Counted from the first letter of the stretch, positions 10,206 through 64,000 are shown. The stretch: DNA of 64,000 nt from Acidimicrobiia bacterium (GCA_965203555.1 CBDBCY010000004.1:1057554-1121553); one strand, 5' to 3'. Notes: a model not told the origin generated them from the sequence alone. Numbers and translations are program-made.

Positions 10206-10206
10206 G

Positions 10207-48353: not shown

Positions 48354-49322
48354 ATGTCCCATGACGCCTCTAATGGTCCCACACACGATGGCAATCTGGC
48401 AACATCCTCTGGCCGGTATGCACAACGTGCCCTTGCCTGCTACGCACAAGGTGACTGGGAGGGCTTTGTTGTCAATGCCTGTACCGCCGTGGAGTTGCTA
48501 GCCAAAGCGGTTCTTGCAAAGGTAAATATTCTGCTGATAGCAGATTGTAGAGAGAAGAGCCTTTTAGAACTAGCGTTAAGCAATCCTAGACGAGGATTTC
48601 CAACTTCGGCCCGAACAATCGGCATCGGGGCGTGCCTCAGCCGCATCAACGCGATCGGAGTGAGGTTGGACTACCGGGACGAGGTGCTGGCTTTATCCAA
48701 GATGCGTAACAGTTTGCTACATAGTGGACATTATGACCCTGATGCTGTGGATGAATCTCTACTAAGGGTTTGGGTGAGTGCATTAGTCCAACTCGCTGAT
48801 CACGGTCAATACGGCAGATCCATGATCTTCGGGGTTCACACGGAGTTTGCGGAAACCCAGATTAGCCAACACGAGGATGACTTAGCAGCTCTCCTGGCAA
48901 AGAAGATGGCGGCTGCCCAAAGTCGGTGGCGAGAGCTAGCTGATCTTGACTCGCTCAGCATCCCATTGATGCATGAAGTCCTACTAACCCAGCTTATTGC
49001 CGATAATTCCGTGGATCCAACCATCCAGTGTATGCCCTGCCCCGTCTGTGACATGCCAGCCGGTCTTTTCGGGGAATTTGAACCTGAGCCAGAATATGAC
49101 AGGATCGACGGAGAAATGATGGCTGTTGGTGTTTATCACGAATACGTGCCGGAACAACTCTTCTGTCAAACCTGTCGGTTACACTTGGACTCACGGGAAC
49201 TGGTAGAGCGATCTGGGGTGTTAGACAATTGGGAGGTCTCTGATGATGATCGTGAGCGATGGGATAAGATAGTTGCTGAAGAGGAGCTTTGGAATGACAA
49301 GGAGTGGCGATTCGACTTCTAG
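48354..49322 (+). CDS. Hypothetical protein with HEPN-like R-x4-H motif and C-terminal CxxC…CxxC zinc ribbon (candidate defense gene)
   Basis: First gene of the lower-GC island. KMRNSLLHSG is an Rx4H HEPN-type motif at the end of an alpha-helical ~150-aa N-terminal region. …CMPCPVCDM…(~45 aa)…CQTCRLH has four Cys in ribbon spacing. Confidence 0.55.
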   Translation: MSHDASNGPTHDGNLATSSGRYAQRALACYAQGDWEGFVVNACTAVELLAKAVLAKVNILLIADCREKSLLELALSNPRRGFPTSARTIGIGACLSRINAIGVRLDYRDEVLALSKMRNSLLHSGHYDPDAVDESLLRVWVSALVQLADHGQYGRSMIFGVHTEFAETQISQHEDDLAALLAKKMAAAQSRWRELADLDSLSIPLMHEVLLTQLIADNSVDPTIQCMPCPVCDMPAGLFGEFEPEPEYDRIDGEMMAVGVYHEYVPEQLFCQTCRLHLDSRELVERSGVLDNWEVSDDDRERWDKIVAEEELWNDKEWRFDF

Positions 49323-49704
49323 CCGGAGGACTGTTGAGCGGTGAGGAAGGATACTATTGTCAATGGCATGCAACCCCCGCAGATGCAATGGGATCCGCTT
49401 AACATCAGCCCTCATTGAGGCCTCCTGAATAGGCGACACAGTACCGCCCAACATCAGCGAGGCCTTAACCCCTGAACAAGGACCTCAACCATCCCCACTC
49501 CCCAACAATTCGCGAAGCCTCGATTCGCTAAGTCGCACAATCCACACAGAGGTATGGTGAACACAGCGTCCGCTCCGAAGGACAGAACACCGGCTGAGGG
49601 ACTAGGCGCTTTGCGAGTTCTTCGGATAGGAGTAAGGGGAGGCTGCGCGTTTCCATTACCGTCAGGCCCACCGCCGTCTCCAAGACCATCGACCGGACTG
49701 AGGC

Positions 49705-51918
49705 CTAAAAGGGATCCTCATAGTCGCTGTACCCACCCCGCATTTTCTCCCCTGCCGAATCCCTTCTTGCAAAGACACGACCTTCCCATTTTGCGCAAAT
49801 CTCCTCGAAGTTCGGTACCTTCTCCTCTTCGACCCAACTCTTGTACATCTGCGGATTGATGCTTTGCGGCACTGGATACGCTTCCCTAATGAGAGCTAAC
49901 GAAGGGATTTGTATACATTGCCCTAGCACCAAAGCGGTACGAGAGGGTAAGGTAGGAAGCTGATCAAGAAGTTCCGAATAGATGTTAGGAACTATCGCAC
50001 GAAAGTAGTGGAGATCTGCAGGGTTCTGCAATCGATGGACGATAAAACTATTGCATTGCGCCAGAACCGTGCGTGAGAGTTCGCTGGGTCGTTGAGAGGC
50101 TATTACCAATCCCAATCCACACTTTCTGCCCTCTCTGGCAATGCGTTCAAATATCTCCTTTGAAATAGAATCTTCCTCTGCTCGGCCAGTTTCCCGTATA
50201 TAATTGTGCGCTTCATCGAGGATCAGGACGACTGGATAATCTCCTCTCTCGACACCACTGATCGGATCAGAGAGTCGCTGCAGGAATTCGTGAATGAGCC
50301 GACCCAGAAGGGCTGTAACATTCTCAAGTGCTTCCGTAGCAAGAAGGCTCAAATCAACGATCACCACATTAGACCCGGATGATCCCTGCCGCTGCCGTTT
50401 GTAAAAGGGAAATACTTCCGGGGAAAGGGTGCAGGTGCCAATGCTGTGATCATTATCCCGAGAGCTAGCGCCGAGAATATCCCGCAAAAAGGTAGCCAAG
50501 GCATGCTCTACCTGTGGCCATTCGCTATCTGTCGGACCAAAGAGAAAGTCAAACCGGGAGTCTGCCAGGAGTCTATATATCCGCAATAGCATTGTAGAAC
50601 AATAGTCTCGGGTTCGAGGGGAATAGGCCTCGCTGCTAGCGAGAGCATCTTCGAGATACAGATCGCGAAAATCGCTCTTACTGAAGAATCTGGGGCTGTC
50701 CACAGAGGCGGCACCTCGGTGACCAGTCAACTGAGGAACACCCGCCAACTCCATAATCAAGGATTGAGCCACTTGGTTCACTTCTTGTCTAAGAGCCATA
50801 GTCAACGGATCGTAATCGCGGTCGCTCCTCCTTCTCACCTTCTTTCGTAGCTCGTGGAGTGTCTCCACTACCTCCTCTTGCAATATTGTTGGGTAGTGAC
50901 TAAGCAGTTCTCCAAGTGCACCGGCATTACCTGGGTCCTGTAGATAGGAAACAATCCCCTTGCACAATACGTCAATGGTGTTTCTTTCTTGCCATCGCCC
51001 CTCTCTTGCTGCAGTCATCATGCGTTGGCACTCTATCCGTAAGTCTTCTCTTAGTTTAACCCATGTTGGACTCTCTCCAGATTCCCGCGCGGCGGTGAGA
51101 GCTTCTAGCAACACTGGCTGCTGTACCCCCGGTGACGCTCGGAACAACCGTACAAAGTCGTCGGCGTTCATGAACCAGTATGGTATCGCCAGTTTGTCAG
51201 ATGCATCTGCGGCCGTGGGAATGTATAGAGTCTTATAGGACTCATGCACATCTGTCCAAGAGCCTTGTGGACTCCGTCGTTGGAAAGCGGAACGGTATTC
51301 GCCGTGTGTGTCAAAAATAATAAACCTGGTTTGCTTGACTGCGGGCGTATGCAGAATTGCTTGTATGATCGAAGAGATAGTACAGGACTTTCCGGAGCCG
51401 GTGCTACCGAGAACAGCGGCATGCATGCCAAAGAAGGCATCTACGTCAATGTTGATTGCGTATTCCGGGAAGACAGCGGAGCGACCAATGGACAAATGAG
51501 AATCGCCTCCCAAGGGAAAGCCTGGTTCAATGGCTCTTTGGAATATCGCATCAAGATCCTGCTGTGTTGGCATGAGAACAGGAGAATCCAGCACAGGATG
51601 GCTGCTAATGCCTTGCTGATAGATTCCTTCTTCAACAACGCCAGTCATTACTCCTCGTAGCATCTTCCTAGCGGACGGCAGGTGCACCGTATTGCCAGCA
51701 GCAGTAGCGCTTCCATCCTCCTTCACATAAAGGCGAGTAACAATAGCTACATTGCGATGTCCACCCACCGGAATGACGACATAGGAGTTTATATGCCCGG
51801 CATCCTTGGTCCCTTCAATCGTTGAACGAGTAAAACTCTTGAGATCGCTCTCTAGAGCTACCGTCACTTGTGCGGCATCTACGGCGACGACTCTACCGAT
51901 CCTGTAATCATCCATCAT
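49705..51918 (-). CDS. herA: HerA-like FtsK/HerA-superfamily ATPase of a Sir2-HerA defense pair
   Basis: Walker A GSTGSGKS, Walker B VVLILDEAHNY, …LVIASQRPSEL… (arginine-finger region). 737 aa, immediately downstream (14 bp) of the SIR2 gene on the same strand. Confidence 0.85.
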   Translation of the reverse strand: MMDDYRIGRVVAVDAAQVTVALESDLKSFTRSTIEGTKDAGHINSYVVIPVGGHRNVAIVTRLYVKEDGSATAAGNTVHLPSARKMLRGVMTGVVEEGIYQQGISSHPVLDSPVLMPTQQDLDAIFQRAIEPGFPLGGDSHLSIGRSAVFPEYAINIDVDAFFGMHAAVLGSTGSGKSCTISSIIQAILHTPAVKQTRFIIFDTHGEYRSAFQRRSPQGSWTDVHESYKTLYIPTAADASDKLAIPYWFMNADDFVRLFRASPGVQQPVLLEALTAARESGESPTWVKLREDLRIECQRMMTAAREGRWQERNTIDVLCKGIVSYLQDPGNAGALGELLSHYPTILQEEVVETLHELRKKVRRRSDRDYDPLTMALRQEVNQVAQSLIMELAGVPQLTGHRGAASVDSPRFFSKSDFRDLYLEDALASSEAYSPRTRDYCSTMLLRIYRLLADSRFDFLFGPTDSEWPQVEHALATFLRDILGASSRDNDHSIGTCTLSPEVFPFYKRQRQGSSGSNVVIVDLSLLATEALENVTALLGRLIHEFLQRLSDPISGVERGDYPVVLILDEAHNYIRETGRAEEDSISKEIFERIAREGRKCGLGLVIASQRPSELSRTVLAQCNSFIVHRLQNPADLHYFRAIVPNIYSELLDQLPTLPSRTALVLGQCIQIPSLALIREAYPVPQSINPQMYKSWVEEEKVPNFEEICAKWEGRVFARRDSAGEKMRGGYSDYEDPF

Positions 51919-51932
51919 GGAAGCTGGCGTTT

Positions 51933-53336
51933 CTACTGCTTGTCTCTGGATAGCGCCATTTTGTTGTAAGTCTGGACGACCTTCAGGGAAAGCTCTTCTT
52001 CCCGCAAATTGGGTAGCAGTGTGTCAACAAACGCATCAAAATGCCCCAGTGTCCCGCTCACAATCCATACTCGCTCATCCTTTAGCTCTTCCAGACTCGC
52101 CACAAATTCGCTCCGAGGATTAGGATCTACCACAACCAAGGTGAAGCTTGGGATTGCCAAAGCTTGACGTATTTGCGCGTTAACATGTTCGTCCCCAAAT
52201 CCGTAGCCTACAACCACCAGTGTTGATTGCGGTTGGGCAACAGCATTACCAAACCTCCGAAACATCTCCGAGTAGGGCAACCCCAAAGACTGGCCATACT
52301 TCAGCGGTGATGGGTAGATAAGCACGTCTTTATCCTCTGTTGATTCACCATATAGGGTCGCATAGAGTCCAAAAGGATTCAACCACGATGCCTCACAGCT
52401 GTGCCAATTAATGGACCCATGAAGCTTATACAGTTGTATTACCCTGTCATAGCGATGAACTCGCCCTTCAGTGGTCTGGGCGGGAAAGTAGAAGTCTATA
52501 TCATAGGACTCTGGCCTGAACACGCGGCGTAGTGTTCCGACAAAGCCATCCATCATAATCACTCCTTCAGCATCACCTGCTTGTTCAATGAGCGTATCAT
52601 AATTGAGTGTAAACAGATGAGTGCGACGCAGATTGAGGGGTCGGGTCAGAAGCTTCCTTAGTAGCAAACGATGAGTGCGGAGACTACCCTCTTTAGCAGG
52701 CACCGGTAAATCAAGCAAACGCGTTAGAGTATCCTCAATAGTCCTGATCAATGTTGCCAATACGCATTTGTTAATGTGGATGTATTCCTCATTGCACAAA
52801 ACTAGAGTGTCCGTTGATGTGAGCATACTAGCCGACCATGTGTGCAGTAGGCTCAAGAGGTGTTCTAAATTCAACGGGATGGGCTCAACCGAAGTATCCG
52901 AGGATGGACACTCCGTGCTCCGCTCTTCAAATGACAAGTCCTGTCCAGTAAGAATGGAAGCTACCTTATAGAAGAGGTCAAGCCAATCCGGCATGGAATC
53001 AGACGACCGCGGCATCCCTGCTCTTTGAATCAGATGCTTTTCCAATGGCCAAGGTATTGCAGCAAGCGATACACCACCGGCATCAATGGAAGCCCCTGCG
53101 CCCAATAGAAAGGACACATTTTCGGTCTTTAGGATCGTGCCAAATCGAACACGCATCCGCTTGAGAGTGTTCTCAAGAGCTGCTTGGGCCACCGTTGCTT
53201 GGGCTTCGTCCTCTGGATCTAAGGGGTTGAGGGCGTCCAGAGCCTGGCTTATGATGTCATCCTTGCCTAGCAGGATCCGGGAATCAGTGTAAGGAAGTGC
53301 TGACTTGTGGTTCATTGTTTCGCCGCGCGGAGTCAT
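51933..53336 (-). CDS. SIR2-family NADase-like protein of a Sir2-HerA defense pair
   Basis: FLLGAGASIDAGG (SIR2 GAGxS NAD-binding loop), LYKLHGSINW (catalytic His), VVGYGFGDEHVN (GYSFxD motif). An alternative start at 53315 (MNHKS) is possible. Confidence 0.85.
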   Translation of the reverse strand: MTPRGETMNHKSALPYTDSRILLGKDDIISQALDALNPLDPEDEAQATVAQAALENTLKRMRVRFGTILKTENVSFLLGAGASIDAGGVSLAAIPWPLEKHLIQRAGMPRSSDSMPDWLDLFYKVASILTGQDLSFEERSTECPSSDTSVEPIPLNLEHLLSLLHTWSASMLTSTDTLVLCNEEYIHINKCVLATLIRTIEDTLTRLLDLPVPAKEGSLRTHRLLLRKLLTRPLNLRRTHLFTLNYDTLIEQAGDAEGVIMMDGFVGTLRRVFRPESYDIDFYFPAQTTEGRVHRYDRVIQLYKLHGSINWHSCEASWLNPFGLYATLYGESTEDKDVLIYPSPLKYGQSLGLPYSEMFRRFGNAVAQPQSTLVVVGYGFGDEHVNAQIRQALAIPSFTLVVVDPNPRSEFVASLEELKDERVWIVSGTLGHFDAFVDTLLPNLREEELSLKVVQTYNKMALSRDKQ

Positions 53337-54014
53337 AGGATTTCGTTACGGAAGGATACCAATGGAGGTGATGAGGCAAGCGTATTTTGGGAATTTGGGA
53401 TGTAAGTGGGGAGTGCCACTGGACGGCGCGCAGGTAGAATCAACCGAATCGACGTCGCATGGCGGCGTGGTCACGGGTCTTTGATCTAATCGACACCCGA
53501 TGGTACGGATACCTGAGCGAAAGTGTCGTGGAGAGCTGGACCCACTCCCATCTCATCCCGCCAAGAGAGCGGCACTTGTGTGAGGTGCTCGCCAAGGGGA
53601 ACGCCAGGGTCACAGCGGAGGCTTAACCAGGTCGCGAATCCTTCCCGCACCGACTCAGCAGAACGGTGGCAACAGGGCAAACCCCACCCTCTCAGACCGA
53701 CCAAGTCAAGGTATCACCCTTGTCAACCTCCCCCCTGGCAACATCAGGTGGAAGGGGGAAGTGCACCCTTTGGTTGGTCACGCCGAGATGAACGACAACG
53801 TGGTTAAGGTCACAAACGCAGAGAAATCTGAACCACTCCGAGTGTCCGGAGGTGCAGCCCTTGGGAGGTGCAGCCCTTGGGAGATCCAGCTTAGGGAAAG
53901 ACAAGAAGAAACGTTAGCCGGAAGTCCGCTAGAGGGCTGTTCGGTTGATGTTCGTTGGTAAGCGCGAGCGTCGGTAGCAGTGGGCGGCGATTCATTGATC
54001 ACCGAGAAGGCGGG

Positions 54015-57000
54015 ATGTTGTCTGAAACCCTGCGTAAGTGGGTTGTCAGTCAGAATGCGAGTGCCTTGCCAGATCCAGCGGGGCCATGCTCAGTTTTCGC
54101 CGATACTTGGTGGAGAGCAGACATTAGGGTTCATCGAGTCTCCCGAGCCAGCCTATGGATGTCACACCCGGTAGGTAATCTGGCAGGGGAACGCATCAGA
54201 GGAGGACCATCCCAAGTGCAGTTGGAAGACCTAGCGCCCGGAACGGTGGTGGATGGATTGGTTGTGGGCGAGCGGGCTACCGTGGTGGCGGTCGATTGGC
54301 ATGGTGCGGGCACCGTCCAGGTGGTTTACCGAACGTTCCAAGGTGTCTCGGAGAGACTGCTCTCCCGGGCCGATGAGGCCCGTCTGTCGGTTGCCACCGA
54401 AGAGCGACCCTGGACGCTCGATGCGCCGGGGCACGCATTCAAGCTTGCCTCGGAGGCGCACCGCATCCAGCTGGCGCATCTGTTCGACCCCTACCTGGCT
54501 GTCCAGGGATCCAACATCGATCCTCTCCCGCACCAGATCGAGGCGGTATATCAGGAGATGCTTCCCCGTCAGCCGCTCCGGTTCCTTCTGGCTGATGATC
54601 CGGGAGCAGGCAAAACGATCATGTCGGGACTCCTGATCCGAGAATTGGATATACGAGGAGACGCCGACCAGGTGCTAATCGTGGCTCCGGGATCGTTGGT
54701 GGAACAGTGGCAGGAGGAACTTCATCAGAGATTCCACCTCTCTTTCGACATCTTCTCCCGTGACATGGTGGAGGCGGCTCGTACGGGCAATCCCTTCAAG
54801 GAACGCTCCCGCTTGATCGCTCGTCTAGATCAGTTGGCCAGAAACGAGGAACTGCAGGAACGGCTGAAGGCCTCAGAGTGGGACCTGGTGGTGGTCGATG
54901 AGGCTCACAAGATGTCTGCTCACCTCTATGGCCAAAAGCTGGAGAAGACCAAACGCTATCGGGTGGGAGAGATCCTCAGGGCCATTACTCGCCACTTTCT
55001 GCTGCTTACCGCCACCCCGCACAACGGTAAGGAAGAAGAATTTCACCTTTTCCTGGCCCTACTGGACCCCGACCGATTCGAGGGACGGTTAAAGGGAGAG
55101 GCCATTCCCGATTACTCCGATGCTATGCGCCGCTACGTAAAGGAGAAACTTCTCACCTTCGACGGTCGCCGCCTGTTCCCGGAGCGATTTGCTATCTCGG
55201 CCCAATACGAACTGTCGCTACCGGAGCAGGAGCTCTACGAGGCGGTCACGTCCTATGTGCGGATAGGCATGAACCGGGCCAAGCAGATGGAAGAGGGTGG
55301 TGATCGCCGGCGGGGATTGGCCGTGGGCTTTGCTTTGGCCGCTCTGCAAAGAAGATTGGCCTCATCCCCACAAGCCATCCATAGGTCTCTAGAGCGCCGA
55401 CGGGATCGCTTGAACAAGCGGCTCGATGAAATGAGAGACATCGCCGAGGGGAAAGCAGTTCCCAAAACCTCCACCAAGTCCGCAAAGCGAACGATCAACT
55501 TCGACGATTTCGACTTCGACGACTTCCGCGATGATGAGTTGGAGGAAATCGAAGACGCAGTCATCGACCAGGAAACCGCCGCCCGCACTATCCCAGAACT
55601 GGAAATAGAAATCTCCCAGCTCGCAGACCTAGAGAAAAAGGCTGCCCGATTGCGGGGTTTGAAGACCGACCGCAAATGGGAAGAGCTCCGGTCAATCCTC
55701 CACTCCGAAGAGATGACCTCTGCCAATGGTGTGGCTCGCAAGATCATCATCTTCACCGAACACCGGGACACGCTCGAGTACTTGGTGGCACGGATCGGAA
55801 CTCTGATAGGACGCTCCGAGGCGGTGGGATGGATACACGGTGGGATGAAGCGACACGACCGCCGCCGAGTCCAGCATGCCTTCGTCAACGATCCCAATCT
55901 GCGAGTGCTGGTGGCAACCGACGCTGCCGGAGAGGGAGTGAACCTACAACGAGCAAACCTGATGGTGAATTACGACCTCCCTTGGAATCCCAACCGTATC
56001 GAACAGCGTTTCGGTCGCATCCACCGGATCGGGCAGACGGAGGTTTGTTACCTGTGGAACCTGGTGGCACACGAAACGCGGGAAGGCGCGGTCTTCCATC
56101 GATTGTTCGAGAAGATCGAACAGCAACGGAAGGCGCTGGGCGGCCAGGTGTACGATGTGCTGGGTGACTCGATGATCGGGAAGTCCCTACGAGAGCTTCT
56201 GATCGAGGCGATCCGCTACGGGGACGATCCCAAAGTGAAAGCAAAGCGGGACGAAGTGATCGACGCCGATGTGGGCGAGCGCCTGCGGGACCTGGTGGAA
56301 CACCAGCAACTCGCTGAGGGGTGGATGGGGATAGACAAACTGTCCGACATTCGGGATGAGATGGAACGAGCCAGAGTCCGAAAGCTCCAGCCTGGATTCA
56401 TCCAAGCCTTCTTCATCGACGCCTTTCGCTTGCTACGTGGACGGATCCCCGAACGGGAGAAGAACCGATTCCAGATCACCCGCGTACCCCAGGGGCTCCG
56501 GGCCGACCCCTTGACCACCGTAGCCCGGGAATACGAGAGAGTCACCTTCGAACCCAGCCTGGAGACCGTGGAGGGAAAACCACCCGCTGAAGTCTTGAGC
56601 CCTGGACATCCACTCCTGGATGTGGTCATAGGGGCGATCAGAGCACAGTACGGTCGCTTTTTGCAGACCGGCACGGTGCTGGTTGATCCCGACGACTCGG
56701 GTACTACACCACGGGTCGTGGTGTATCTGGAACATCGGATCACCGATGGCAAACCCGAACGCAATGGTCGCCGTCCGGTGTCTCGACGATATCAGTACAT
56801 AGAGATACCGAAAGATGGGAAGCCCACCAGCGCCGGGCAGGCACCCTATCTGGACTACCGGCCTATCCGTGACGAAGAGCAGTCGATGATTAAGGCATTG
56901 GCTGAGGATGATTGGATCACGACCGCTCTGACGACCACCGCTCAGAGGTATGCCATAGAGCACCTGGCCCAAGTCCACTACCAGGAAGTTTCCCGCATCG

Positions 57001-57269
57001 TCACCACTCGGGTACAGAAGGTGAGAGCAGCGGTGAAGGAACGTTTGAAGAAAGAGATCCGCTACTGGGACGAACGGGTGTACGCCCTCAAGGAAAGGGA
57101 ATTGGCTGGCAAATCGACCGGTGGGTTCACCTCCGGGCACGCTCGCAATTTCGCCGACGATCTCGAGGCGCGCCTAGAGCGGCGCAATCGAGAACTCGAC
57201 CAAGAACTTGATCTTTCCAACCTGGATCCACCGGTGGGTTTGGTGGTGTGGGGTGGTGAAATGCTGTGA
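54015..57269 (+). CDS. SNF2-family (COG0553) helicase, C-terminally truncated by IS insertion (BrxHII-like / DUF3883-helicase)
   Basis: N-terminal SH3/Tudor-like region, then helicase motifs LADDPGAGKT (I), DLVVVDEAHK (II), LLLTATP (III), and C-terminal helicase motifs …LVATDAAGEGVNLQ…, …QRFGRIHRIGQ… (VI). The ORF terminates at 57269, exactly at the left IS junction. The track start at 53955 is a TTG, so the ATG at 54015 is preferred. Confidence 0.8.
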   Translation: MLSETLRKWVVSQNASALPDPAGPCSVFADTWWRADIRVHRVSRASLWMSHPVGNLAGERIRGGPSQVQLEDLAPGTVVDGLVVGERATVVAVDWHGAGTVQVVYRTFQGVSERLLSRADEARLSVATEERPWTLDAPGHAFKLASEAHRIQLAHLFDPYLAVQGSNIDPLPHQIEAVYQEMLPRQPLRFLLADDPGAGKTIMSGLLIRELDIRGDADQVLIVAPGSLVEQWQEELHQRFHLSFDIFSRDMVEAARTGNPFKERSRLIARLDQLARNEELQERLKASEWDLVVVDEAHKMSAHLYGQKLEKTKRYRVGEILRAITRHFLLLTATPHNGKEEEFHLFLALLDPDRFEGRLKGEAIPDYSDAMRRYVKEKLLTFDGRRLFPERFAISAQYELSLPEQELYEAVTSYVRIGMNRAKQMEEGGDRRRGLAVGFALAALQRRLASSPQAIHRSLERRRDRLNKRLDEMRDIAEGKAVPKTSTKSAKRTINFDDFDFDDFRDDELEEIEDAVIDQETAARTIPELEIEISQLADLEKKAARLRGLKTDRKWEELRSILHSEEMTSANGVARKIIIFTEHRDTLEYLVARIGTLIGRSEAVGWIHGGMKRHDRRRVQHAFVNDPNLRVLVATDAAGEGVNLQRANLMVNYDLPWNPNRIEQRFGRIHRIGQTEVCYLWNLVAHETREGAVFHRLFEKIEQQRKALGGQVYDVLGDSMIGKSLRELLIEAIRYGDDPKVKAKRDEVIDADVGERLRDLVEHQQLAEGWMGIDKLSDIRDEMERARVRKLQPGFIQAFFIDAFRLLRGRIPEREKNRFQITRVPQGLRADPLTTVAREYERVTFEPSLETVEGKPPAEVLSPGHPLLDVVIGAIRAQYGRFLQTGTVLVDPDDSGTTPRVVVYLEHRITDGKPERNGRRPVSRRYQYIEIPKDGKPTSAGQAPYLDYRPIRDEEQSMIKALAEDDWITTALTTTAQRYAIEHLAQVHYQEVSRIVTTRVQKVRAAVKERLKKEIRYWDERVYALKERELAGKSTGGFTSGHARNFADDLEARLERRNRELDQELDLSNLDPPVGLVVWGGEML

Positions 57270-58908
57270 AGTGCCTCTCTGACCTGGGAGAATAGCTGTT
57301 ACCAAACACGGCTATTTGCCCTGGCAGAGGAGGCACTTCTTGTGAAAATGATAACCAGGTTGGACAGGTTGGAGGTGAGGTTCGACGAGGGGTCGTTGGT
57401 CGCAGACGCGGGTCTGCTACTGGCCGGGAGTTTTTTGTCCCGGTTGGGTGTGGAACAGTTGGTGGACGACACCGTGAACATTCCCGGCAAACAGGGCGGC
57501 GCCCGTCCGGGCCGCAAGATACTGTCGTTGGTGGCGTCGATGCTGCTGGGCGGCACCCATATCGATCATGCCGATCGGCTGCGGTCTGCAGCCACCCGTA
57601 GGGTGCTGCCGTTTCGGGTGATGGCCCCTTTTCACGCTGGGAACGTTTCTTCGTTCTTTCACATGGGGTCATGTCTGCCAGTTGAACAAAGCCTTGGGAC
57701 TGCTGCTGGCCCGGGTCTGGTCCCAGCCGGGCATCGGCCCGGGCGACCGTCCGTTGATTATTGATGTGGACTCCACCATCTGCGAGGTTCACGGCAAGAA
57801 AAAGGAAGGCGCCGTCTACGGTCACACCGGTGTGTTGGGATACCATCCGCTGACGGCGATCGTGTCCGACACCGGCGAGATTGTTCATCATCGCCTGCGG
57901 AAAGGATCCTCGCAGAGAGGAAACACCCGGTTCATGGTGGAGACGGTCAACCGGGTGAGACGGGCCGGAGCGACCGGTACGATCACCGTCCGGGCGGACA
58001 AGGGCTTTTGGTCGGGTAAGACCGTGCAGAAACTGGAGTCCATGGGAGCGGAGTGGTTTATCGGTGTTCGACGATATCCCAACGTTAAACGTGCTATAGA
58101 GAACATAGACAAGGACGATTGGGTGGATATCGGCTACACCCCGGACGGTCAGGCGCAGGTGGCCGAGACCACTATCACCACCAAGATCGACAAAGAAGAA
58201 CACACCCTGCGGGTGGTGGTCAGACGCACCCGCCTCACCGACCGCCAACACCCCCCAGTTGCCGATCTGGTCCGACTGGCGACACCACGCGTTCGCCACC
58301 AGCAACCGTGTCCTCGAAGCGGTGGAAGCCGACAGTATGTACCGCCGTCATGCCTGTGTGGAACTGGGCATCCGCGACCTCAAACACCACGCCGGACTGG
58401 CCCACTGTCCATCAGGGCGGTTCTTCGCCAACGCCGCCTGGATGGCCGCCGCGGTGGCGGCTCACAACCTGTACCGGTGGATCAACCACCACACCGGCGC
58501 AACACCGAAGGGAAAGCTCACCTGCGGTCGCACGGTCCGCACCCGCCTTTTCAACCTGCCCGGAAGAATCGTCAACCACAGCCACAAACTCCTCCTGCGA
58601 CTACCCACCCGCTGGCCATGGGCACACACCTACCACACCGCTCTCAACAGCATCCGCACCCTGCCACAACTCTGCTGAACAACCCCGCCAGCAACCCAAA
58701 CCCTCTATCAGGACTGCATCACCCCGGCTGCCGCATACCCCAAAAGCCCCCCACCGGACCGTTCCCACCCCGCAACCCCACCGACAGACCCCGACCACCG
58801 TCCAAAGAACAAAACCCGCCCGCCAAAACACCAAAAACAAGCCCGATCACACCAACCACACCCACCCAAACCACCCGATCGGTGGATTGAGGTTCCAACC
58901 ATCCGCCT
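57262..58908 (+). mobile_element. IS1380-family insertion sequence (boundaries approximate) with frameshifted transposase
   Basis: The transposase is spread over three frames (57342..57764, 57682..~58260, 58259..58678) with IS1380-like blocks: …DVDSTICEVHGKKKEGAVYGHTGVLGYHPL…, …RADKGFWS…, …RHACVELGIRDLKHHAGLAHCPSGRFFANAAWMAAAVAAHNLYRW…. It is followed by a ~230-bp C/A-rich tail. It interrupts the helicase reading frame between …PPVGLVVWGG and VVGGALIIPQ…. Confidence 0.7.
57342..58678 (+). pseudogene. IS1380-family DDE transposase with two or more frameshifts
   Basis: See the mobile_element entry. Colinear homology needs +1/-1 shifts near ~57690 and ~58255. Confidence 0.65.
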
Positions 58909-59376
58909 GTGGTGGTTGGGGGTGCATTGATCATCCCACAGGGATTGCTCGAAGTTGAGAACCCGACGTTGCCCGTGAACCCGGACAGTCGGGAGGAGAT
59001 CGACCGGCGAGCGGTAGCAGCAGTGATGGCTGCCGAGCGCCGTCTGAGCCGAGAGCCGACCGAGATGGAGCATCACAACCCCGGGTACGACATCGAAAGC
59101 AAATGCCCCGCCACAGGTGACCTGTACTTCATCGAGGTGAAAGGGCGGATCGAAGGAGCCGATGCCATAAGCGTCAAGTCTCGGCAGATCCGCCAAGGTC
59201 TCAACCATCCGCATCGGTTCATTTTGGCTGTCGTGCAGGTGCCATCCGACCCCGATCCTGAGCCAGTCGTGCGCTATGTGCGCCATCCATTCAAAGGTGT
59301 GACTATGCCCTTCAGCACATATTCGGTCAACCTTCCTCTGAAAGAACTGCTAACTCGATCCACGGATCCATCATGA
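58891..59376 (+). pseudogene. Orphaned DUF3883 C-terminal domain of the IS-split SNF2 helicase
   Basis: …HHNPGYDIESKCPATGDLYFIEVKGRIEGAD… is the DUF3883 signature (GYDI.S…IEVKG). The open frame resumes immediately after the IS at 58891. It has no good own start (track calls GTG 58909) and continues the helicase C-terminus (…LVVWGG // VVGGALII…). Confidence 0.65.
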
Positions 59377-59460
59377 CCCAGAGTCGACCGAAGGAGTGCT
59401 TGTTACCCTTCCATGGGGCCTATCCCATACCCTGCCCCGACATCCGTGCGAAGTTACACC

Positions 59461-62214
59461 ATGGCCTATAAGAAGAAGCTGATCGAGGTGGCGTTGCCGT
59501 TGCAGACCATCAGCAAAGAGGCGGCACGGGAGAAGTCAATTCGTCATGGACACCCTTCTACCTTGCATCTGTGGTGGGCACGGCGCCCGCTGGCAGCGGC
59601 TCGTGCAGTGCTGTGGGCGTCGCTGGTAGATGACCCCTCGGCTCATCCCGGCCGATTTCCTACCGAACAGGATCAGTCGGATGAACGGAAGCGACTGTTC
59701 GAAACGCTCACAGACTTGGTGAAGTGGAAGAACACCAATAACGTCCAGGTGCTGTCCGCTGCGAAGGCCGAGATCCTGGCATCCTGTGACGGTGAGTTAC
59801 CCAACATCCTGGACCCCTTCTGCGGGGGCGGGACTATTCCTTTGGAAGCGCAGCGGCTGGGATTGCCTGCCTATGGCGGGGATTTGAATCCGGTGGCGGT
59901 CTTGATCTCGAAGGCCATGGTAGAGATTCCACCCCGGTTTGCAGGAATACCGCCGATCAACCCCGAAGCGGGGAACAGCATGGACGTTGGTTCTTGGGAA
60001 GGGGCACGAGGTCTGGCTGAAGACATTGTCTATTACGGCCGGTGGGTGCGAGACCAGGCTTTAAAGCGTATCGGACATCTCTACCCAAGAGCTCAGGTCC
60101 CCGAAGGTGTCGGAGGGCGGAGGGAGACTGTTATCGCCTGGATATGGGCTCGCACCGTCCAGTCCCCGGACCCGGCTTGGGACGGGCACGTGCCGCTTGT
60201 CGGCTCATGGGTATTGCGAAGGAGACCCGGGAAGCCGTGGGTATGGGTGAAGCCTTTGGTTGATCACGACACCCAAACCATCAGCTATCAAATCCGAGAG
60301 GGAGGCACACCTCCCAAAGGCACAGTAAAGCGGGCAGTTGGCACCTGCATAGCCACCGGGGCCACCATCCCAAATGCCTACATTAAAGAAGAGGGACAGG
60401 CAGGAAGGATGGGGCAACACCTGATAGCCGTGGTTTGTGAGGGACATGACGGACGCCGGTACCTGCCACCAGAAAGCACTCCACATGTAGAAGTGCCTAT
60501 ACCGGAGTGGGAACCTAGGGGAAGGCTGGACGGCAAGGCAGGGGATCAAATGCCTCTCTATGGCTCCACTCATTGGAGACATCTGTTCACAGATCGTCAA
60601 CTTGTCGCGCTGACCACCTTCTCGGATCTTCTGCTGGAGGTTCGATCATCCATAGAGCAAGATGCGCGAAAGGCGGATCTCCCCGCAGACAACAGGCCCC
60701 TTCGACAGGGGGGTTCTGGAGCCAACGCCTATGGTGAAGCTCTTCTGACCTTCCTGGCGTTTGCATTAGACCGATGCGCGGTTAGGTGGTCGGAATGCGT
60801 TCCATGGCATGCTGGCCGCGAAACCGTGGAACACGTGTTCGGGCGTCAGGCCATCGCAATGGTGTGGTACTTCCCGGAAGCCAACCCCTTCTCTTCCTCC
60901 ACCGGCAACTGGTTGGGACAGCTCACTTGGATCGGCAAGGTGGTCGAGAACCTCCCGGCTCAAGGATTGGGGGAGGTGTTTCAGCAGGATGCCCGAGCAC
61001 GGCTGAGTTCAGTTCCTAATCCGGTTGTGACCACCGATCCACCCTATTACGACAACATCTGCTATGCCGATATCTCGGACTTCTTCTACGTGTGGCTTCG
61101 ACACAACCTCCGCTCTATCTGGCCCGATGAGTTGTCCACCCTTGCTACCCCCAAGGCGGAAGAACTGATTGCCAGTGCCTACCGCCACCAGAGCAAAACA
61201 GCAGCCGCGCACTTTTTCGAGTCTGGAATGAGGGAAGTCTTGGGAGAAGCCGCTCAGGTGCAGCATCCCGATTTTCCAGTCTCCATTTTCTACGCTTTCA
61301 AACAAGCAGAAACCAAAAAAGGCGAAACCGTCTCCACCGGATGGCAGACGTTTCTCCAGGCACTCAACGACACAGGACTCAGAGTCTTGGCCACCTGGCC
61401 CATGCGCACAGAGATGACTTCCGGACTTAGGAGCCTGGCTTCCACGTTGGCATCATCAATCGTGATCGTATGCCGCCCTCGACCCGCCAATTCACCCCTG
61501 GCCACTCGTGGCGAGCTACTGGCGGCTCTCCGCTCTGAACTCCCTTCCGCTATGCGACTGTTACGAGAACAGGCTATTGCTCCTGTGGACATGGACCAAT
61601 CCATGATCGGCCCGGGTATGGCAGTGTTTTCCCGTTACTCCCGGGTACTAAATGCCGATGGAACCGCCATGTCGGTCCGTCAGGCCTTGGCTCTCATCGA
61701 CCAGATAAAGGAAGAGACCCTCTCGGAGGAAGAGACCGAGTTCGACTACGAGACCCGGTGGGCTCTCACATGGTATCGACAGTTTGGGGCAGACCTCGGC
61801 TCCTACGGAGACGCAGAGACCCTATCGAAAGCCAAGAACACCTCGGTGTCCAGCGTGGTCAGAGCCGGAATCGCCACTTCTGTGGCTGGTAAGGTGCAAC
61901 TCGTCCCGCGCGCCGACCTTAACCCAAACTGGGATCCTAGGGCAGATCCCAGCCCGAAGGTGTGGCAGGTTACTCAGCACCTTTTGGACCGCTTGGAGAG
62001 ATCCGAGACCGAAGCCGCCGATCTTCTCCGTCAAGCCGGTTCGGGTATGGGCGATCGAGCCCGGCAACTCGCCTATTTGCTCTATCAAACCGCGGATCGC
62101 CGGGGGTGGGCGCAAGAGAGAATCGTTTACAACATGCTGGTGACCGTCTGGCCGACTCTCGTTGACTTGGCTGCCCAGCCATCCCCCGGACAAGGCAGCC
62201 TCCTGGAAGCATGA
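59461..62214 (+). CDS. DUF1156 (COG1743) putative adenine-specific DNA methyltransferase of defense systems (PglXI-like)
   Basis: MAYKKKLIEVALPLQTISKEAAREKSIRHGHPSTLHLWWARRPLAAARAVLWASLVDDP is the conserved DUF1156 N-terminus. …DPFCGGGTIPLEAQRLGL… is a motif-I-like SAM-binding loop. …VVTTDPPYYDNICYADISDFFYVW… is a DPPY motif IV. The track ORF begins 16 codons earlier at 59413. Confidence 0.85.
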   Translation: MAYKKKLIEVALPLQTISKEAAREKSIRHGHPSTLHLWWARRPLAAARAVLWASLVDDPSAHPGRFPTEQDQSDERKRLFETLTDLVKWKNTNNVQVLSAAKAEILASCDGELPNILDPFCGGGTIPLEAQRLGLPAYGGDLNPVAVLISKAMVEIPPRFAGIPPINPEAGNSMDVGSWEGARGLAEDIVYYGRWVRDQALKRIGHLYPRAQVPEGVGGRRETVIAWIWARTVQSPDPAWDGHVPLVGSWVLRRRPGKPWVWVKPLVDHDTQTISYQIREGGTPPKGTVKRAVGTCIATGATIPNAYIKEEGQAGRMGQHLIAVVCEGHDGRRYLPPESTPHVEVPIPEWEPRGRLDGKAGDQMPLYGSTHWRHLFTDRQLVALTTFSDLLLEVRSSIEQDARKADLPADNRPLRQGGSGANAYGEALLTFLAFALDRCAVRWSECVPWHAGRETVEHVFGRQAIAMVWYFPEANPFSSSTGNWLGQLTWIGKVVENLPAQGLGEVFQQDARARLSSVPNPVVTTDPPYYDNICYADISDFFYVWLRHNLRSIWPDELSTLATPKAEELIASAYRHQSKTAAAHFFESGMREVLGEAAQVQHPDFPVSIFYAFKQAETKKGETVSTGWQTFLQALNDTGLRVLATWPMRTEMTSGLRSLASTLASSIVIVCRPRPANSPLATRGELLAALRSELPSAMRLLREQAIAPVDMDQSMIGPGMAVFSRYSRVLNADGTAMSVRQALALIDQIKEETLSEEETEFDYETRWALTWYRQFGADLGSYGDAETLSKAKNTSVSSVVRAGIATSVAGKVQLVPRADLNPNWDPRADPSPKVWQVTQHLLDRLERSETEAADLLRQAGSGMGDRARQLAYLLYQTADRRGWAQERIVYNMLVTVWPTLVDLAAQPSPGQGSLLEA

Positions 62215-62222
62215 GATAGGAC

Positions 62223-64000
62223 ATGGCTCTTTCCAACCACGAACGTGTAGGACAGGCACTCACTCTGCTCCGCGACGGCATCAGTGTTGGGGTGGAGCGA
62301 GCCTGGCGGGAAATATACGGTCTTTCCTGGATGCAAAAGGTCAACAGCTTTTTGCATCAGCCGGATCACAGCCCCTCTGCCGACGACCTATCGTTTTTGC
62401 TTAAGGGTGTACAGGCCACCTGGAACCCTATCTTCGGCAAAGTCCTCCCCTACCAAACCCGCAACTATGTGTCCCTCTTGCGAGACGCCCGCAACAAATG
62501 GGCTCACAATCGCAAGTTCGGTTCAGACGAAACCATCCGCATCCTCGACCAGTGCGAGGTAGTGCTCAAAGACTTCAAGGCACCCGAACAAGCCGAGCAG
62601 GTCCGGAGTCTGAAAAAAGCGTTGCAGAGACAGGTGTACGAGCAGGAAGGTCGCGACGAACGCAAACGGCTAATCAGTGTCTCGGATCTCACTAAGGGAC
62701 AGCCTGCGGGTCAGTACCCGCCTTGGCGGGAGGTGGTGGCTCCCCATCCCGATGTCCGGGAAGGCCGCTTCACCCAGGCCGAGTTCGCCGCCGACCTCTG
62801 GCAGGTGCTCAACGGACGGGCCGAAGAGGAGTATCAAGACCCGGCAGCCTTCTTTGCCCGCACCTTTATCACCGACGGTCTGGCGGATTTGATTCGCATC
62901 GCCGCCCAGCGTCTCTCGGGTCAGGGCGGAGAGCCGGTAGTGGAACTCCAAACCAGCTTCGGCGGTGGCAAGACCCACAGCCTGATCGCCCTTTACCACT
63001 TGGCGTCGGAGACCTCCACCCACAAACTGCCCGGAGTGGACGAATTATTGATCCGTGAGAACCTGACCATCCCGAAGACGGTCAACCGGGCAGCATTTGT
63101 CGGTCAGGCTTTTTCGGCTTCCGATCCCGCTCCTAAACCGGACGGCACGCCGGTGCGCACCCTGTGGGGAGAAATCGCTTGGCAACTTGGCGGCCCGGAG
63201 GCTTATGCCATCTTGGCTAAGGACGATCAAAACGCCACCAACCCCGGCGCCAAGCTGGTGGAGTTGTTCGAGAGATTCGGACCCGCCCTGGTTTTGATCG
63301 ATGAATGGGTGGCCTACGCCCGCGACCTCCCGACCCGGACGGACGAGACCCGAGTAGCTGGCGGGGACTTCGACACCCAGTTCACCTTTGCGCAGGCACT
63401 CACGGAAGCTGCCGCAGCCGCGAAGAACGCCTTGGTGCTGGTTTCCATTCCCTCCTCGAACATGGAAGTGGGAGGAGAAAAAGGACAGCAGGCCCTGGAA
63501 AAGCTCAAGAATGTCGTGTCACGCCGAGCAACCGAGTGGCGGGCCGCCACCACGGACGAGTCTTTCGAGATCGTGCGCCGCCGTCTGTTCGAACCACTCC
63601 CCCACGGATCGGCCCGTAAACGTGACGCGGTCATCCGGGCCTATCACGATCTGTACCGAAACCAGCCCGATCACTTTCCGCCCGAAACCCGTGAAACCTC
63701 CTACCGGAAACGGATGAAGGGATCCTATCCAATCCATCCGGAGCTATTCGACCGGCTCTACGAGGACTGGTCAACTCTGGAACGTTTCCAACGGACCCGA
63801 GGAATGCTGCGACTGATGGCCGCGGTAATCGCCAGCCTATGGGAACAAGGTGATCCTTCACAAATGATCATGCCGGGCATCCTCCCAATGGAATCCGGAA
63901 GAGTGCTTCCGGAGATCACCAAATACCTTGAGGACCGCTGGGATCCGATCATCCACACCGATGTGGACGGCCCCAACAGCTTGCCCCGCCGTATCGACAA
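62223..64000 (+). CDS. HEPN(Swt1-like)-DUF499 (COG1483) AAA-type ATPase, 3'-truncated by window end (BrxC/PglY-related)
   Basis: Not in the ORF track because it has no stop in the window. My own translation from ATG 62223 gives MALSNHERVGQALTLLRDGISV…LRDARNKWAHNRKF (Rx4H HEPN) …VVELQTSFGGGKTHSLIALYHL (P-loop) …LVLIDEWVAY (Walker B) …, open to the window end. It starts 6 nt after the DUF1156 stop. Confidence 0.85.
   Translation, partial: MALSNHERVGQALTLLRDGISVGVERAWREIYGLSWMQKVNSFLHQPDHSPSADDLSFLLKGVQATWNPIFGKVLPYQTRNYVSLLRDARNKWAHNRKFGSDETIRILDQCEVVLKDFKAPEQAEQVRSLKKALQRQVYEQEGRDERKRLISVSDLTKGQPAGQYPPWREVVAPHPDVREGRFTQAEFAADLWQVLNGRAEEEYQDPAAFFARTFITDGLADLIRIAAQRLSGQGGEPVVELQTSFGGGKTHSLIALYHLASETSTHKLPGVDELLIRENLTIPKTVNRAAFVGQAFSASDPAPKPDGTPVRTLWGEIAWQLGGPEAYAILAKDDQNATNPGAKLVELFERFGPALVLIDEWVAYARDLPTRTDETRVAGGDFDTQFTFAQALTEAAAAAKNALVLVSIPSSNMEVGGEKGQQALEKLKNVVSRRATEWRAATTDESFEIVRRRLFEPLPHGSARKRDAVIRAYHDLYRNQPDHFPPETRETSYRKRMKGSYPIHPELFDRLYEDWSTLERFQRTRGMLRLMAAVIASLWEQGDPSQMIMPGILPMESGRVLPEITKYLEDRWDPIIHTDVDGPNSLPRRID

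What the first reader, a model, noticed from the sequence alone, without database searches (positions are those of the whole stretch)
54015..64000. IS-disrupted methylation-type defense module: SNF2-DUF3883 helicase // DUF1156 methyltransferase // HEPN-DUF499 ATPase (BREX-type-3-like), incomplete in the window
Three co-oriented genes have exactly the domain set of a defense-island module predicted in the literature. These are a COG1743/DUF1156 methylase, a COG1483/DUF499 ATPase and a COG0553 helicase, the analogues of PglXI, BrxC and BrxHII of BREX type 3.

The methylase starts with the hallmark MxxKKLIEVALPL…IRHGHPSTLHLWWARRP and carries a DPPY motif. The ATPase has an N-terminal Swt1-like HEPN (Rx4H) before its P-loop, begins 6 nt after the methylase stop, and runs off the window. 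Any PglZ/BrxA genes would lie beyond 64 kb.

The helicase has been cut in two by an IS1380-family element inserted precisely between its SNF2 core and its C-terminal DUF3883 domain. The frame breaks at …PPVGLVVWGG* and resumes at VVGGALIIPQ… after the IS. The restriction-like arm is therefore probably inactive, while the methylase may persist.

The ATPase ORF is absent from the supplied ORF track because it has no stop in the window.
Basis: partly seen in the sequence, partly recalled or inferred. Interest (0 to 1): 0.7.

Follow-up and report, generated by a model that had tools for sequence, protein, structure and literature searches.

The report
IS-split Hma (BREX-related) defence operon
This is an ordinary copy of an already described three-gene anti-phage system (Hma, also called a Type-1 BREX-related system), whose helicase-nuclease gene has been cut in two by a jumping gene, so its DNA-cutting arm is probably out of action.

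Summary
Window 54216-64000 (+) carries hmaA, hmaB and hmaC. These encode a Snf2 helicase with a C-terminal NOV_C/DUF3883 nuclease, a DUF1156 DPPY methyltransferase, and a HEPN_Swt1-DUF499 ATPase that runs off the window. PADLOC scores are 1327, 1027 and 589 bits.

A 1.67-kb IS1380-family element (57223-58892) sits inside hmaA between codons 1002 and 1003, flanked by the 8-bp direct repeat TTCCAACC. Deleting the IS and one repeat copy restores a 1160-aa ORF. That ORF is 80% identical, end to end, to an intact Acidimicrobiia orthologue. Uninterrupted alleles exist in three relatives.

Five corrections:
- hmaA starts at GTG 54216, not 54015.
- The break lies after ...DLSN; the last 15 codons of the truncated ORF are IS sequence.
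- The hmaB-hmaC spacer is 8 nt, not 6.
- No PglZ or BrxA is expected. Orthologous loci are three-gene, and the nuclease-fused helicase marks the PglZ-free Type-1 subtype.
- The IS transposase itself carries two homopolymer frameshifts.

The system type, including the HEPN-fused variant, is published (Payne 2021; Liu 2024; Rakesh & Krishnan 2026). An IS-inactivated copy is ordinary, so interest is low.

The parts
54216..57222 (+). hmaA 5' part, codons 1-1002. It contains the Swi2/Snf2 helicase core (Walker A DDPGAGKT at 54594-54617, DEAH at 54891-54908) plus the downstream non-catalytic region.
   Evidence: PADLOC HmaA 1327 bits and Pfam SNF2-rel_dom/Helicase_C. 80.4% identity to residues 1-1002 of L001 HmaA. 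GTG start with RBS. Identical to database protein P0003.
57215..57222 (.). Left copy of the target-site duplication TTCCAACC. The duplication is 6 bp (TTCCAA) if the IS begins with CC at 57221.
   Evidence: Read directly. The same 8-mer is present once in the reconstructed gene.
57223..58892 (+). IS1380-family insertion sequence, 1670 bp. Imperfect terminal inverted repeats: CCTGGATCCACCGGTGGG... on the left, and the reverse complement of ...CCCGATCGGTGGATTGAGG on the right. The first 47 nt supply the 15-codon tail and TGA stop of the truncated HmaA ORF (57223-57269).
   Evidence: Terminal inverted repeat I2 and gapped alignment of the ends. blastn to the intact alleles L005, L004 and L001 breaks exactly here.
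57342..58678 (+). IS1380 transposase reading frame, broken into three frames by two 1-nt insertions in homopolymers (T4 near 57627-57630, C6 near 58243-58248).
   Evidence: NCBIfam NF033539 pieces at 2-74, 127-299 and 310-419. tblastn with homologues P0145, P0124, P0123 and P0127, plus three-frame translation.
58893..58900 (.). Right copy of the target-site duplication TTCCAACC.
58901..59376 (+). hmaA 3' part, codons 1003-1160 plus stop. It encodes the NOV_C/DUF3883 PD-(D/E)xK nuclease domain with D (GYDIES, 59083-59100) and ExK (IEVKG, 59131-59145). An in-frame TGA at 58888-58890 separates it from IS sequence. The first possible start is GTG 58909, with no clear RBS.
   Evidence: Pfam NOV_C E=9.6e-16 and HmaA profile positions 1015-1172. 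79.7% identity to the L001 HmaA C-terminus. Motifs located. Catalytic residues follow Liu 2024.
59461..62214 (+). hmaB, a DUF1156 amino-methyltransferase of 917 aa (alternative ATG at 59413 gives 933 aa). Motif I DPFCGGG at 59812-59832; motif IV DPPY at 61036-61047.
   Evidence: Pfam DUF1156 E=1.9e-30 and PADLOC HmaB 1027 bits. 70.6% identity to L001 HmaB. L004 HmaB is called at 917 aa.
62223..64000 (+). hmaC 5' part, 592 of about 1089-1092 codons. N-terminal Swt1-like HEPN (RNKWAH at 62490-62507), Walker A GGGKT (62961-62975), Walker B LVLIDEW (63288-63308) and the DUF499 AAA+ core. It is cut by the window end.
   Evidence: 84.6% identity to residues 1-591 of the 1092-aa L001 HmaC. The orthologues are 1089 aa.
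49705..53336 (-). Context only: the neighbouring sir2-herA defence pair. It lies in a 50-52% GC block (about 48140-54131) that is absent from relative L004.
   Evidence: Pfam SIR2_2 and DUF87. PADLOC SIR2 266 bits and HerA 471 bits. Composition. Synteny.

Best explanation
The locus is a horizontally acquired Hma operon (hmaA-hmaB-hmaC), equivalent to a Type-1 'BREX-related' DUF499-centred system of the HEPN-fused kind. It sits in a defence island of what is most likely an Acidimicrobiia genome.

Proposed mode of action when intact (from the literature, not shown here). HmaB methylates host DNA at a specific motif. The DUF499 STAND/ORC-like ATPase HmaC senses or scans for invading DNA. The Snf2 translocase HmaA then nicks or cuts that DNA with its C-terminal PD-(D/E)xK (NOV_C) domain. 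The HEPN RNase on HmaC is a possible back-up suicide effector.

In this genome an IS1380-family element transposed into codon 1002/1003 of hmaA. This uncoupled the motor from its nuclease. The truncated HmaA (1002 native residues plus 15 IS-encoded ones) has no nuclease. The nuclease fragment has lost its promoter, start codon and ribosome-binding site.

The restriction arm is therefore most likely dead, while hmaB and hmaC remain intact ORFs. Losing restriction while keeping methylation is the harmless order in which to lose a restriction-modification-like system.
For: Shown here:
- Family assignments: PADLOC HmaA 1327, HmaB 1027 and HmaC 589 bits, each far above the next-best model (DrmD 405, MTase_II 115, DUF499 110).
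- Insertion: an 8-bp direct repeat flanks 1670 bp with IS1380 transposase homology and terminal inverted repeats.
- Reconstruction: removing 57223-58900 gives one 1160-aa ORF, 80.3% identical to L001 HmaA over residues 1-1160.
- Junction: intact relatives read ...DLSNHPP(R/M/A/V)VVG(G/A)ALIIPQ across the site (L001, P0121/L005, P0001/L004, P0122).
- Empty site: the two flanks abut in L005, L004 and L001.
- Gene content: in L001 the next large ORF after hmaC is on the opposite strand; in L005 hmaC is followed by a 140-aa and an HD-domain gene; L004's contig ends about 300 bp after hmaC. No PglZ gene is present.
- Composition: the locus is 58-59% GC against a backbone of about 64%.

From the literature:
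- Hma was defined by Payne 2021.
- HmaA alone defends E. coli against T4. This needs the NOV_C D/ExK/E residues; a quadruple mutant loses all defence (Liu 2024).
- Type-1 BR has three genes. 79% carry helicase-REase fusions, and the HEPN-fused ATPase occurs in 1370 taxa (Rakesh & Krishnan 2026).
Against: - No expression or phenotype data exist for this locus.
- The nuclease fragment is no more diverged from L001 than the helicase part (79.7% against 80.4%), and all ORFs are intact. There is therefore no sign of decay after the insertion. It may be recent, or the pieces may still be used.
- The C-terminal 142 aa of Halomonas HmaA is an active nickase on its own in vitro.
- IS1380 members such as ISEcp1 and ISPme1 carry strong outward promoters at the end that here faces the nuclease fragment and hmaBC. 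Residual or altered activity cannot be excluded.
- The RM-like role of HmaB is unproven. HmaB overexpression did not let T4 escape HmaA.
- The 3' half of hmaC lies outside the window.
Confidence: 0.85

Rival explanations
1. The split system still works. An outward-facing promoter in the right end of the IS transcribes the NOV_C fragment (from GTG 58909), hmaB and hmaC. The stand-alone nuclease then acts in trans with the nuclease-less helicase. This would resemble the roughly 21% of Type-1 BR loci in which the nuclease is a separate gene.
For: - The IS transposase is co-oriented with hma, so its 3' end faces the downstream genes.
- ISEcp1 and ISPme1 (IS1380 family) have strong outward promoters at that end.
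- The isolated 142-aa C-terminal fragment of Halomonas HmaA nicks plasmid DNA in vitro.
- All downstream ORFs are intact, and the C fragment is as conserved as the N fragment.
- 21% of Type-1 BR helicases lack the fusion and rely on neighbouring nucleases.
Against: - No sigma-70-like promoter was found in the IS right end, though that scan is weak for this kind of organism.
- GTG 58909 has no Shine-Dalgarno sequence at a usable distance.
- Among the 120 best HmaA homologues listed, every one except this genome's own truncated protein carries NOV_C fused.
[quoted passage not shown] None is reported to be a detached NOV_C piece.
Confidence: 0.08
2. [quoted passage not shown]
For: The three genes are homologous to BrxHII, PglXI and BrxC. 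HmaA matches the PADLOC BrxHI and BrxHII models at 312 and 302 bits. The window ends inside hmaC, so the downstream region is unseen.
Against: - Every protein scores far higher on the Hma models than on Brx models, and HmaC hits no BrxC model at E<=0.01.
- The methyltransferase carries DUF1156, the BR-specific N-terminus.
- The helicase has the C-terminal PD-(D/E)xK nuclease that Type-3 BR and BrxHII lack.
- Orthologous loci at 75-91% nucleotide identity carry no PglZ or BrxA gene: L001 and L005 within the sequence seen downstream, while L004's contig ends just after hmaC.
Confidence: 0.03
3. The IS insertion is not fixed in the organism. It could be an assembly artefact or a minority allele captured in a metagenome-assembled consensus, so the real population mostly carries intact hmaA.
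For: - The source appears to be a 3.14-Mb single-contig genome found only in NCBI/ENA. The nearest named relatives are all MAGs.
- The IS carries two homopolymer indels of the sort long-read consensus errors produce.
- A second, 96-98% identical copy exists in the same genome (P0123), so repeat-induced misassembly is conceivable.
Against: - A clean 8-bp target duplication and a precise, in-frame empty site are hallmarks of true transposition, not of chimeric joins.
- The 8.3 kb of flanking hma coding sequence has no frameshift, so the consensus quality there is good.
Confidence: 0.04
4. The helicase and the DUF3883 nuclease are naturally two genes in this lineage, and the IS merely sits in an intergenic spacer.
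For: Two separate ORFs are present.
Against: - Removing the IS and one repeat copy fuses the ORFs in frame with no spacer and no stop codon. The result is collinear with 1150-1160-aa single proteins in the closest relatives.
- The last 15 codons and the stop of the upstream ORF are IS sequence.
Confidence: 0

Closest known systems
Hma system (HmaA/HmaB/HmaC; Payne et al. 2021, PADLOC), equivalent to the Type-1 DUF499-centred BREX-related (BR) system, HEPN-fused variant (Rakesh & Krishnan, NAR 2026)
   Same: Same three genes in the same order and orientation. Snf2 helicase with a C-terminal NOV_C PD-(D/E)xK nuclease, DUF1156 DPPY methyltransferase, and DUF499 AAA+ ATPase with an N-terminal Swt1-like HEPN. 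PADLOC model scores are 590-1330 bits. It is located in a defence island.
   Different: hmaA is interrupted by an IS1380-family element inside its coding sequence. Reported 'embedded' genes lie between hma genes, not inside one. Only 54% of hmaC is visible. The fourth conserved nuclease residue (E1121 in Halomonas HmaA) is Q here and in the close Acidimicrobiia relatives.
Halomonas meridiana SCSIO 43005 HmaA, the only experimentally tested member (Liu et al. 2024)
   Same: Same domain architecture (Snf2-rel_dom, Helicase_C, NOV_C), with the D...ExK catalytic motif conserved.
   Different: In Halomonas the gene is intact, Septu is embedded between hmaA and hmaB, and HmaC has no HEPN annotation. 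Here the motor and the nuclease are physically separated, which is expected to mimic the loss-of-function nuclease mutants.
BREX type 3 (BrxHII, PglXI, BrxC, PglZ, BrxA, BrxF)
   Same: Homologous helicase, N6-methyltransferase core with TRD insert, and STAND/ORC-like ATPase. The presumed logic is also shared: methylate self, sense, restrict.
   Different: No PglZ, BrxA or BrxF gene is seen in orthologous loci. The methyltransferase has the DUF1156 N-terminus. The helicase carries its own nuclease. The ATPase is DUF499 (HmaC), not BrxC.
IS1380-family insertion sequences (for example ISEcp1, ISPme1)
   Same: A single DDE transposase matching NF033539 and PF13701, a length of about 1.7 kb, terminal inverted repeats, and ends that can be read as starting with CC.
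   Different: The flanking repeat is 6-8 bp, longer than the 4-5 bp I recall for this family (from memory, not checked here). The transposase ORF carries two 1-nt homopolymer insertions. A roughly 200-bp C/A-rich non-coding tail follows the transposase.

Membership tests
Hma / Type-1 BR system | Three co-oriented, adjacent genes: Swi2/Snf2 helicase, N6-type methyltransferase and DUF499 ATPase. | tested here: met
   ORFs and translation. PADLOC HmaA, HmaB and HmaC are the best hits for each protein.
Hma / Type-1 BR system | The helicase carries a C-terminal active PD-(D/E)xK (NOV_C/DUF3883) nuclease. | tested here: met
   The NOV_C domain (E=9.6e-16) has D and ExK present. It is collinear and in frame with the helicase once the IS is removed. 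In the present sequence the fusion is physically broken by the IS, so the locus is a disrupted member.
Hma / Type-1 BR system | The methyltransferase has the DUF1156 N-terminal domain and amino-methyltransferase motifs I and IV. | tested here: met
   PF06634 E=1.9e-30, with DPFCGGG and DPPY present.
Hma / Type-1 BR system | DUF499 STAND/ORC-like AAA+ ATPase with Walker A and B motifs. The HEPN N-terminal fusion defines the sub-variant. | tested here: met
   PF04465 E=2.5e-22, HEPN_Swt1 E=1.7e-19, with GGGKT, LVLIDEW and RNKWAH present.
Hma / Type-1 BR system | C-terminal wHTH/alpha+beta/RRM region of the DUF499 ATPase. | not testable with these tools
   This region lies beyond base 64000. Orthologues L001, L004 and L005 have full-length proteins of 1089-1092 aa.
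Hma / Type-1 BR system | No PglZ/iSTAND (Type-3 BR) and no DUF3780 or N-terminal HKD nuclease (Type-2 BR). | tested here: inconclusive
   Inside the window there is no HKD/PLD domain on HmaA and no DUF3780 gene. Downstream of hmaC is unseen. Orthologous loci carry no PglZ gene.
Hma / Type-1 BR system | N-terminal TUDOR domain and internal inactive REase in the helicase. | not tested
   No structure prediction was run. The N-terminus aligns with orthologues from residue 1.
Hma / Type-1 BR system | Anti-phage activity and self-methylation. | not testable with these tools
   Requires experiments. Only Halomonas HmaA has been tested.
BREX type 3 | PglZ, BrxA and BrxB/F genes in the operon; a BrxC ATPase; a PglXI methyltransferase without DUF1156. 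| tested here: not met
   There is no Brx model hit for the ATPase, and the methyltransferase has DUF1156. Orthologous loci lack PglZ and BrxA genes.
Type-2 BR (PLD-helicase / DUF1156 / DUF499 / DUF3780; NCBIfam NF042962-4) | HKD nuclease at the helicase N-terminus; scores above the NCBIfam cut-offs. | tested here: not met
   Scores are 185, 118 and 129 bits against cut-offs of 1100, 1000 and 1200. There is no PLD domain.
DISARM (DrmD helicase) | A DrmD equivalog score, plus DrmA, DrmB and DrmC partners. | tested here: not met
   NF038317 scores 385 bits against a cut-off of 610. PADLOC DrmD scores 405 bits against 1327 for HmaA. The partner genes are absent.
IS1380 family | A DDE transposase matching NF033539/PF13701, terminal inverted repeats, a target-site duplication, and a length of 1.5-2 kb. 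| tested here: met
   The three collinear pieces score 47.8, 128 and 84.3 bits. Each is below the 180-bit cut-off alone because of the frameshifts; their rough sum is 260. Inverted repeats and a 6-8-bp direct repeat are present, and the length is 1670 bp.

The most novel reading that the evidence does not exclude
The IS insertion produced a functional gene fission rather than a knock-out. An outward promoter in the IS1380 right end would drive a free-standing NOV_C nickase together with hmaB and hmaC, and the nuclease would work in trans with, or independently of, the truncated Snf2 motor. That would be a caught-in-the-act example of how the nuclease-separate variants of BREX-related systems arise. 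A related small point: the IS landed next to a sequence that mimics its own terminal repeat (empirical frequency about 6e-4), hinting at IR-directed targeting.
Probability: 0.06. Interest if true: 0.4.

Novelty: already known. Interest (0 to 1): 0.12.

Why it matters
It matters little beyond annotation. The locus should be labelled 'Hma / Type-1 BREX-related system, hmaA disrupted by an IS1380-family element', not BREX, DISARM or an unknown system. PglZ should not be expected downstream.

It is a tidy natural example of a restriction-modification-like system losing its nuclease arm while keeping its methyltransferase. It also shows a defence hotspot whose content differs between close relatives: the SIR2-HerA block is present here and absent in L004.

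If the organism were cultivable, the IS-bearing allele paired with a repaired allele would form a natural mutant pair. That pair could test whether HmaB and HmaC have any function without the HmaA nuclease, a question the only experimental Hma study left open.

Tried and rejected
- Exact look-ups of window proteins to extend the contig all failed. These were HmaB with both starts, P0003 and P0123. The source genome's gene positions are not in that index, so the 3' half of hmaC and its downstream region could not be read directly.
- Two metagenome scans found nothing: one for an exact 38-nt empty-site sequence and one for the 30-nt IS left end. No near-identical IS-free allele or second IS copy was recovered.
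- A plasmid search with the IS gave a single weak hit, 130 nt at 71% identity.
- The related IS in L006 aligns only over 57486-58691 and is truncated, so it did not help define the ends.
- The promoter and terminator scan found no more sites than expected by chance and nothing in the IS right end. It is uninformative for a high-GC actinobacterial genome.
- Programmed frameshifting in the transposase was considered, because many homologues are about 300-330 aa. It was rejected. Homologues P0145, P0201 and P0124 read straight through the first site, and P0123 and P0127 read through the second. A -1 slip at C CCT TTT leads into a stop codon.
- No flanking direct repeats were found for the 6-kb SIR2-HerA block.
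- No tRNA genes are present in the window.

Full report
**What is in the sequence**

Between 54.2 kb and the window end there are four co-oriented (+) coding segments and one insertion sequence.

*Segment 1, hmaA 5' part.* The ORF listed as 53955-57269 is a Swi2/Snf2 helicase. It matches Pfam SNF2-rel_dom, Helicase_C and ResIII and the PADLOC HmaA model at 1327 bits over profile positions 2-1016 of 1176.
- Its true start is GTG 54216.
- That codon follows AGAGGAGGA.
- It aligns with residue 1 of the orthologue.
- It is the start of database protein P0003, which is 100% identical over 1017 aa.

*Segment 2, hmaA 3' part.* Region 58909-59376, in frame back to 58891, is a NOV_C/DUF3883 PD-(D/E)xK domain (E=9.6e-16). 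It matches HmaA profile positions 1015-1172, so it continues exactly where segment 1 stops.

*Segment 3, hmaB.* Region 59461 (or 59413)-62214 is a DUF1156 methyltransferase with motif I FCGGG and motif IV DPPY. PADLOC HmaB scores 1027 bits.

*Segment 4, hmaC.* It starts at ATG 62223, 8 nt after the hmaB stop, and stays open to base 64000.
- It has a Swt1-like HEPN domain (RNKWAH).
- It has a DUF499 AAA+ core with GGGKT and LVLIDEW.
- PADLOC HmaC scores 589 bits over profile positions 5-426 of 941.

**The insertion**

Region 57223-58892 (1670 bp) carries an IS1380-family transposase. Three collinear pieces match NCBIfam NF033539 at positions 2-74, 127-299 and 310-419, and Pfam PF13701.

The element has imperfect terminal inverted repeats. 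It is flanked by the direct repeat TTCCAACC at 57215-57222 and 58893-58900. If the IS starts with CC at 57221, the duplication is 6 bp (TTCCAA).

Deleting 57223-58900 yields one uninterrupted 1160-codon ORF. That ORF is 80.3% identical to the 1160-aa HmaA of an Acidimicrobiia MAG (L001) over residues 1-1160.

Across the junction, intact relatives read ...ELDLSNHPP(R/M/A/V)VVG(G/A)ALIIPQ... (L001, L005/P0121, L004/P0001, P0122). The window reads ...ELDLSN | IS | (SN)HPPVVVGGALIIPQ.

blastn of L005 (91% nucleotide identity), L004 and L001 shows the two flanks abutting.

The helicase is therefore one gene cut after codon 1002, about 60 codons upstream of the Pfam NOV_C match. It is not two natural genes. 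The 15 C-terminal residues of the truncated ORF (LDPPVGLVVWGGEML) and its stop codon are IS sequence.

**State of the IS**

The transposase is in three frames because of two single-base insertions in homopolymers (CCCCTTTTC and CACCCCCCAG). Homologues read through both sites.

A second copy in the same genome (P0123, 96-98% identical) has the second site in frame.

These indels may be real decay or long-read consensus errors. The 8.3 kb of hma coding sequence around the IS has none.

**What it is**

The gene set, order and domain architecture are those of the Hma system (helicase, methylase, ATPase).
- Payne et al. 2021 defined it: 1,638 instances in 26 phyla.
- Rakesh & Krishnan 2026 re-described it as the Type-1 DUF499-centred BREX-related system. 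It has three genes only. The helicase is fused to an active PD-(D/E)xK REase in 79% of taxa. The methyltransferase has the DUF1156 N-terminus and a core like the BREX-3 PglXI. A HEPN-fused ATPase occurs in 1370 taxa.

The alternatives fail explicit tests.
- Type-2 BR needs an N-terminal HKD nuclease and DUF3780. The matching NCBIfam models score 118-185 bits against cut-offs of 1000-1200.
- Type-3 BR and BREX-3 have PglZ and a nuclease-less helicase.
- DrmD models score well below HmaA and below their own cut-off.

Orthologous loci carry no PglZ or BrxA gene. L001 has opposite-strand genes after hmaC. L005 has a 140-aa and an HD-domain gene after it. L004's contig ends about 300 bp after hmaC. 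What is missing from the window is only the last 500 or so codons of hmaC.

**How it most likely works, and what the IS does to it**

The only experimental data are from Halomonas (Liu 2024).
- HmaA alone protects E. coli from T4.
- Protection requires the helicase and the NOV_C residues D, ExK and E; a quadruple mutant loses all defence.
- The isolated 142-aa C-terminal fragment nicks supercoiled plasmid with Mn2+.
- Overexpressing HmaB did not let T4 escape.

The restriction-modification-like model is inference from domain content. In that model HmaB marks self DNA, HmaC senses or scaffolds, HmaA translocates and cuts, and HEPN acts as a back-up RNase.

Here D (GYDIES) and ExK (IEVKG) are intact. 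The fourth residue is Q in this clade.

Because the IS uncouples the motor from the nuclease, the simplest expectation is loss of restriction with hmaB and hmaC retained. It is inferred, not shown.

Three caveats apply.
- The C fragment is as conserved as the N fragment (79.7% against 80.4% identity to L001).
- All ORFs are intact.
- IS1380 elements are known for strong outward promoters at the end that faces the downstream genes.

A functional split therefore cannot be excluded. I give it under 10%.

**Context**

The backbone is about 64% GC, hma is 58-59%, and the block at about 48.1-54.1 kb is 50-52%.

That block encodes a divergent sir2-herA pair (PADLOC SIR2 266 bits, HerA 471 bits) and an unassigned 322-aa ORF. 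It is absent from relative L004, where the phosphorylase gene (window 47427-48215) lies about 0.7 kb from hmaA.

In L005, hma sits in a different neighbourhood.

The region is a variable defence island. The nearest named homologues are Acidimicrobiia MAGs.

**Verdict**

The system type and its HEPN variant are published, the truncated protein is already in public databases, and IS disruption of a defence gene is commonplace. Novelty: already known. Interest: low.

Noticed in passing
window 48140-54131 (sir2 51933-53336 -, herA 49705-51918 -, ORF 48354-49322 +): A roughly 6-kb block of 50-52% GC, against a backbone of about 64%, carries a SIR2-HerA defence pair and a 322-aa ORF with no Pfam or PADLOC match. 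The block is missing in relative L004, where the phosphorylase gene lies about 0.7 kb from hmaA. No flanking repeats were found.
   Followed up: partly
window 57627-57630 and 58243-58248: Both frameshifts in the IS1380 transposase are 1-nt insertions in homopolymers (T4 and C6). A second copy in the same genome (P0123) has the second site in frame. This is either real decay or long-read consensus error.
   Followed up: partly
window 57226-57249 versus 58901-58924: The hmaA target sequence immediately after the insertion (ATCCGCCTGTGGTGGTTGGGGGTG) resembles the IS's own left terminal repeat (ATCCACCGGTGGGTTTGGTGGTG). The alignment score is reached by only 0.056% of random 36-mers from the window. 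In L005 the same site reads ATCCACC, matching the repeat core exactly. This may reflect IR-like target choice, which is known for IS1380 members.
   Followed up: partly
window 58680-58890: The last 200 bp or so of the IS, after the transposase stop, are strongly C/A-rich (GC skew about -0.2) and non-coding. The related element in L006 has a similar tail. Its function is unknown; it could hold an outward promoter.
   Followed up: no
L002 9980-19679: The Arenicellales MAG hma-like locus has two DUF1156 methyltransferase genes (9980-12898 and 13755-16829) with a NYN-domain ORF (13184-13840) between them, followed by the DUF499 ATPase.
   Followed up: no
window 53337-54215: The 880-bp stretch between divergent sir2 and hmaA contains an unassigned 94-aa ORF (53523-53807). 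Homology to relatives' hma loci begins only at about 54132-54143, roughly 75-85 bp upstream of the hmaA start.
   Followed up: no
literature (PMC8565338 versus PADLOC-DB and the sequence): Payne 2021 describes HmaB in the text as an 'm5c methyltransferase'. PADLOC-DB labels it DNA-adenine methylase, and the protein carries a DPPY amino-methyltransferase motif. The adenine or N4 reading fits the sequence.
   Followed up: yes
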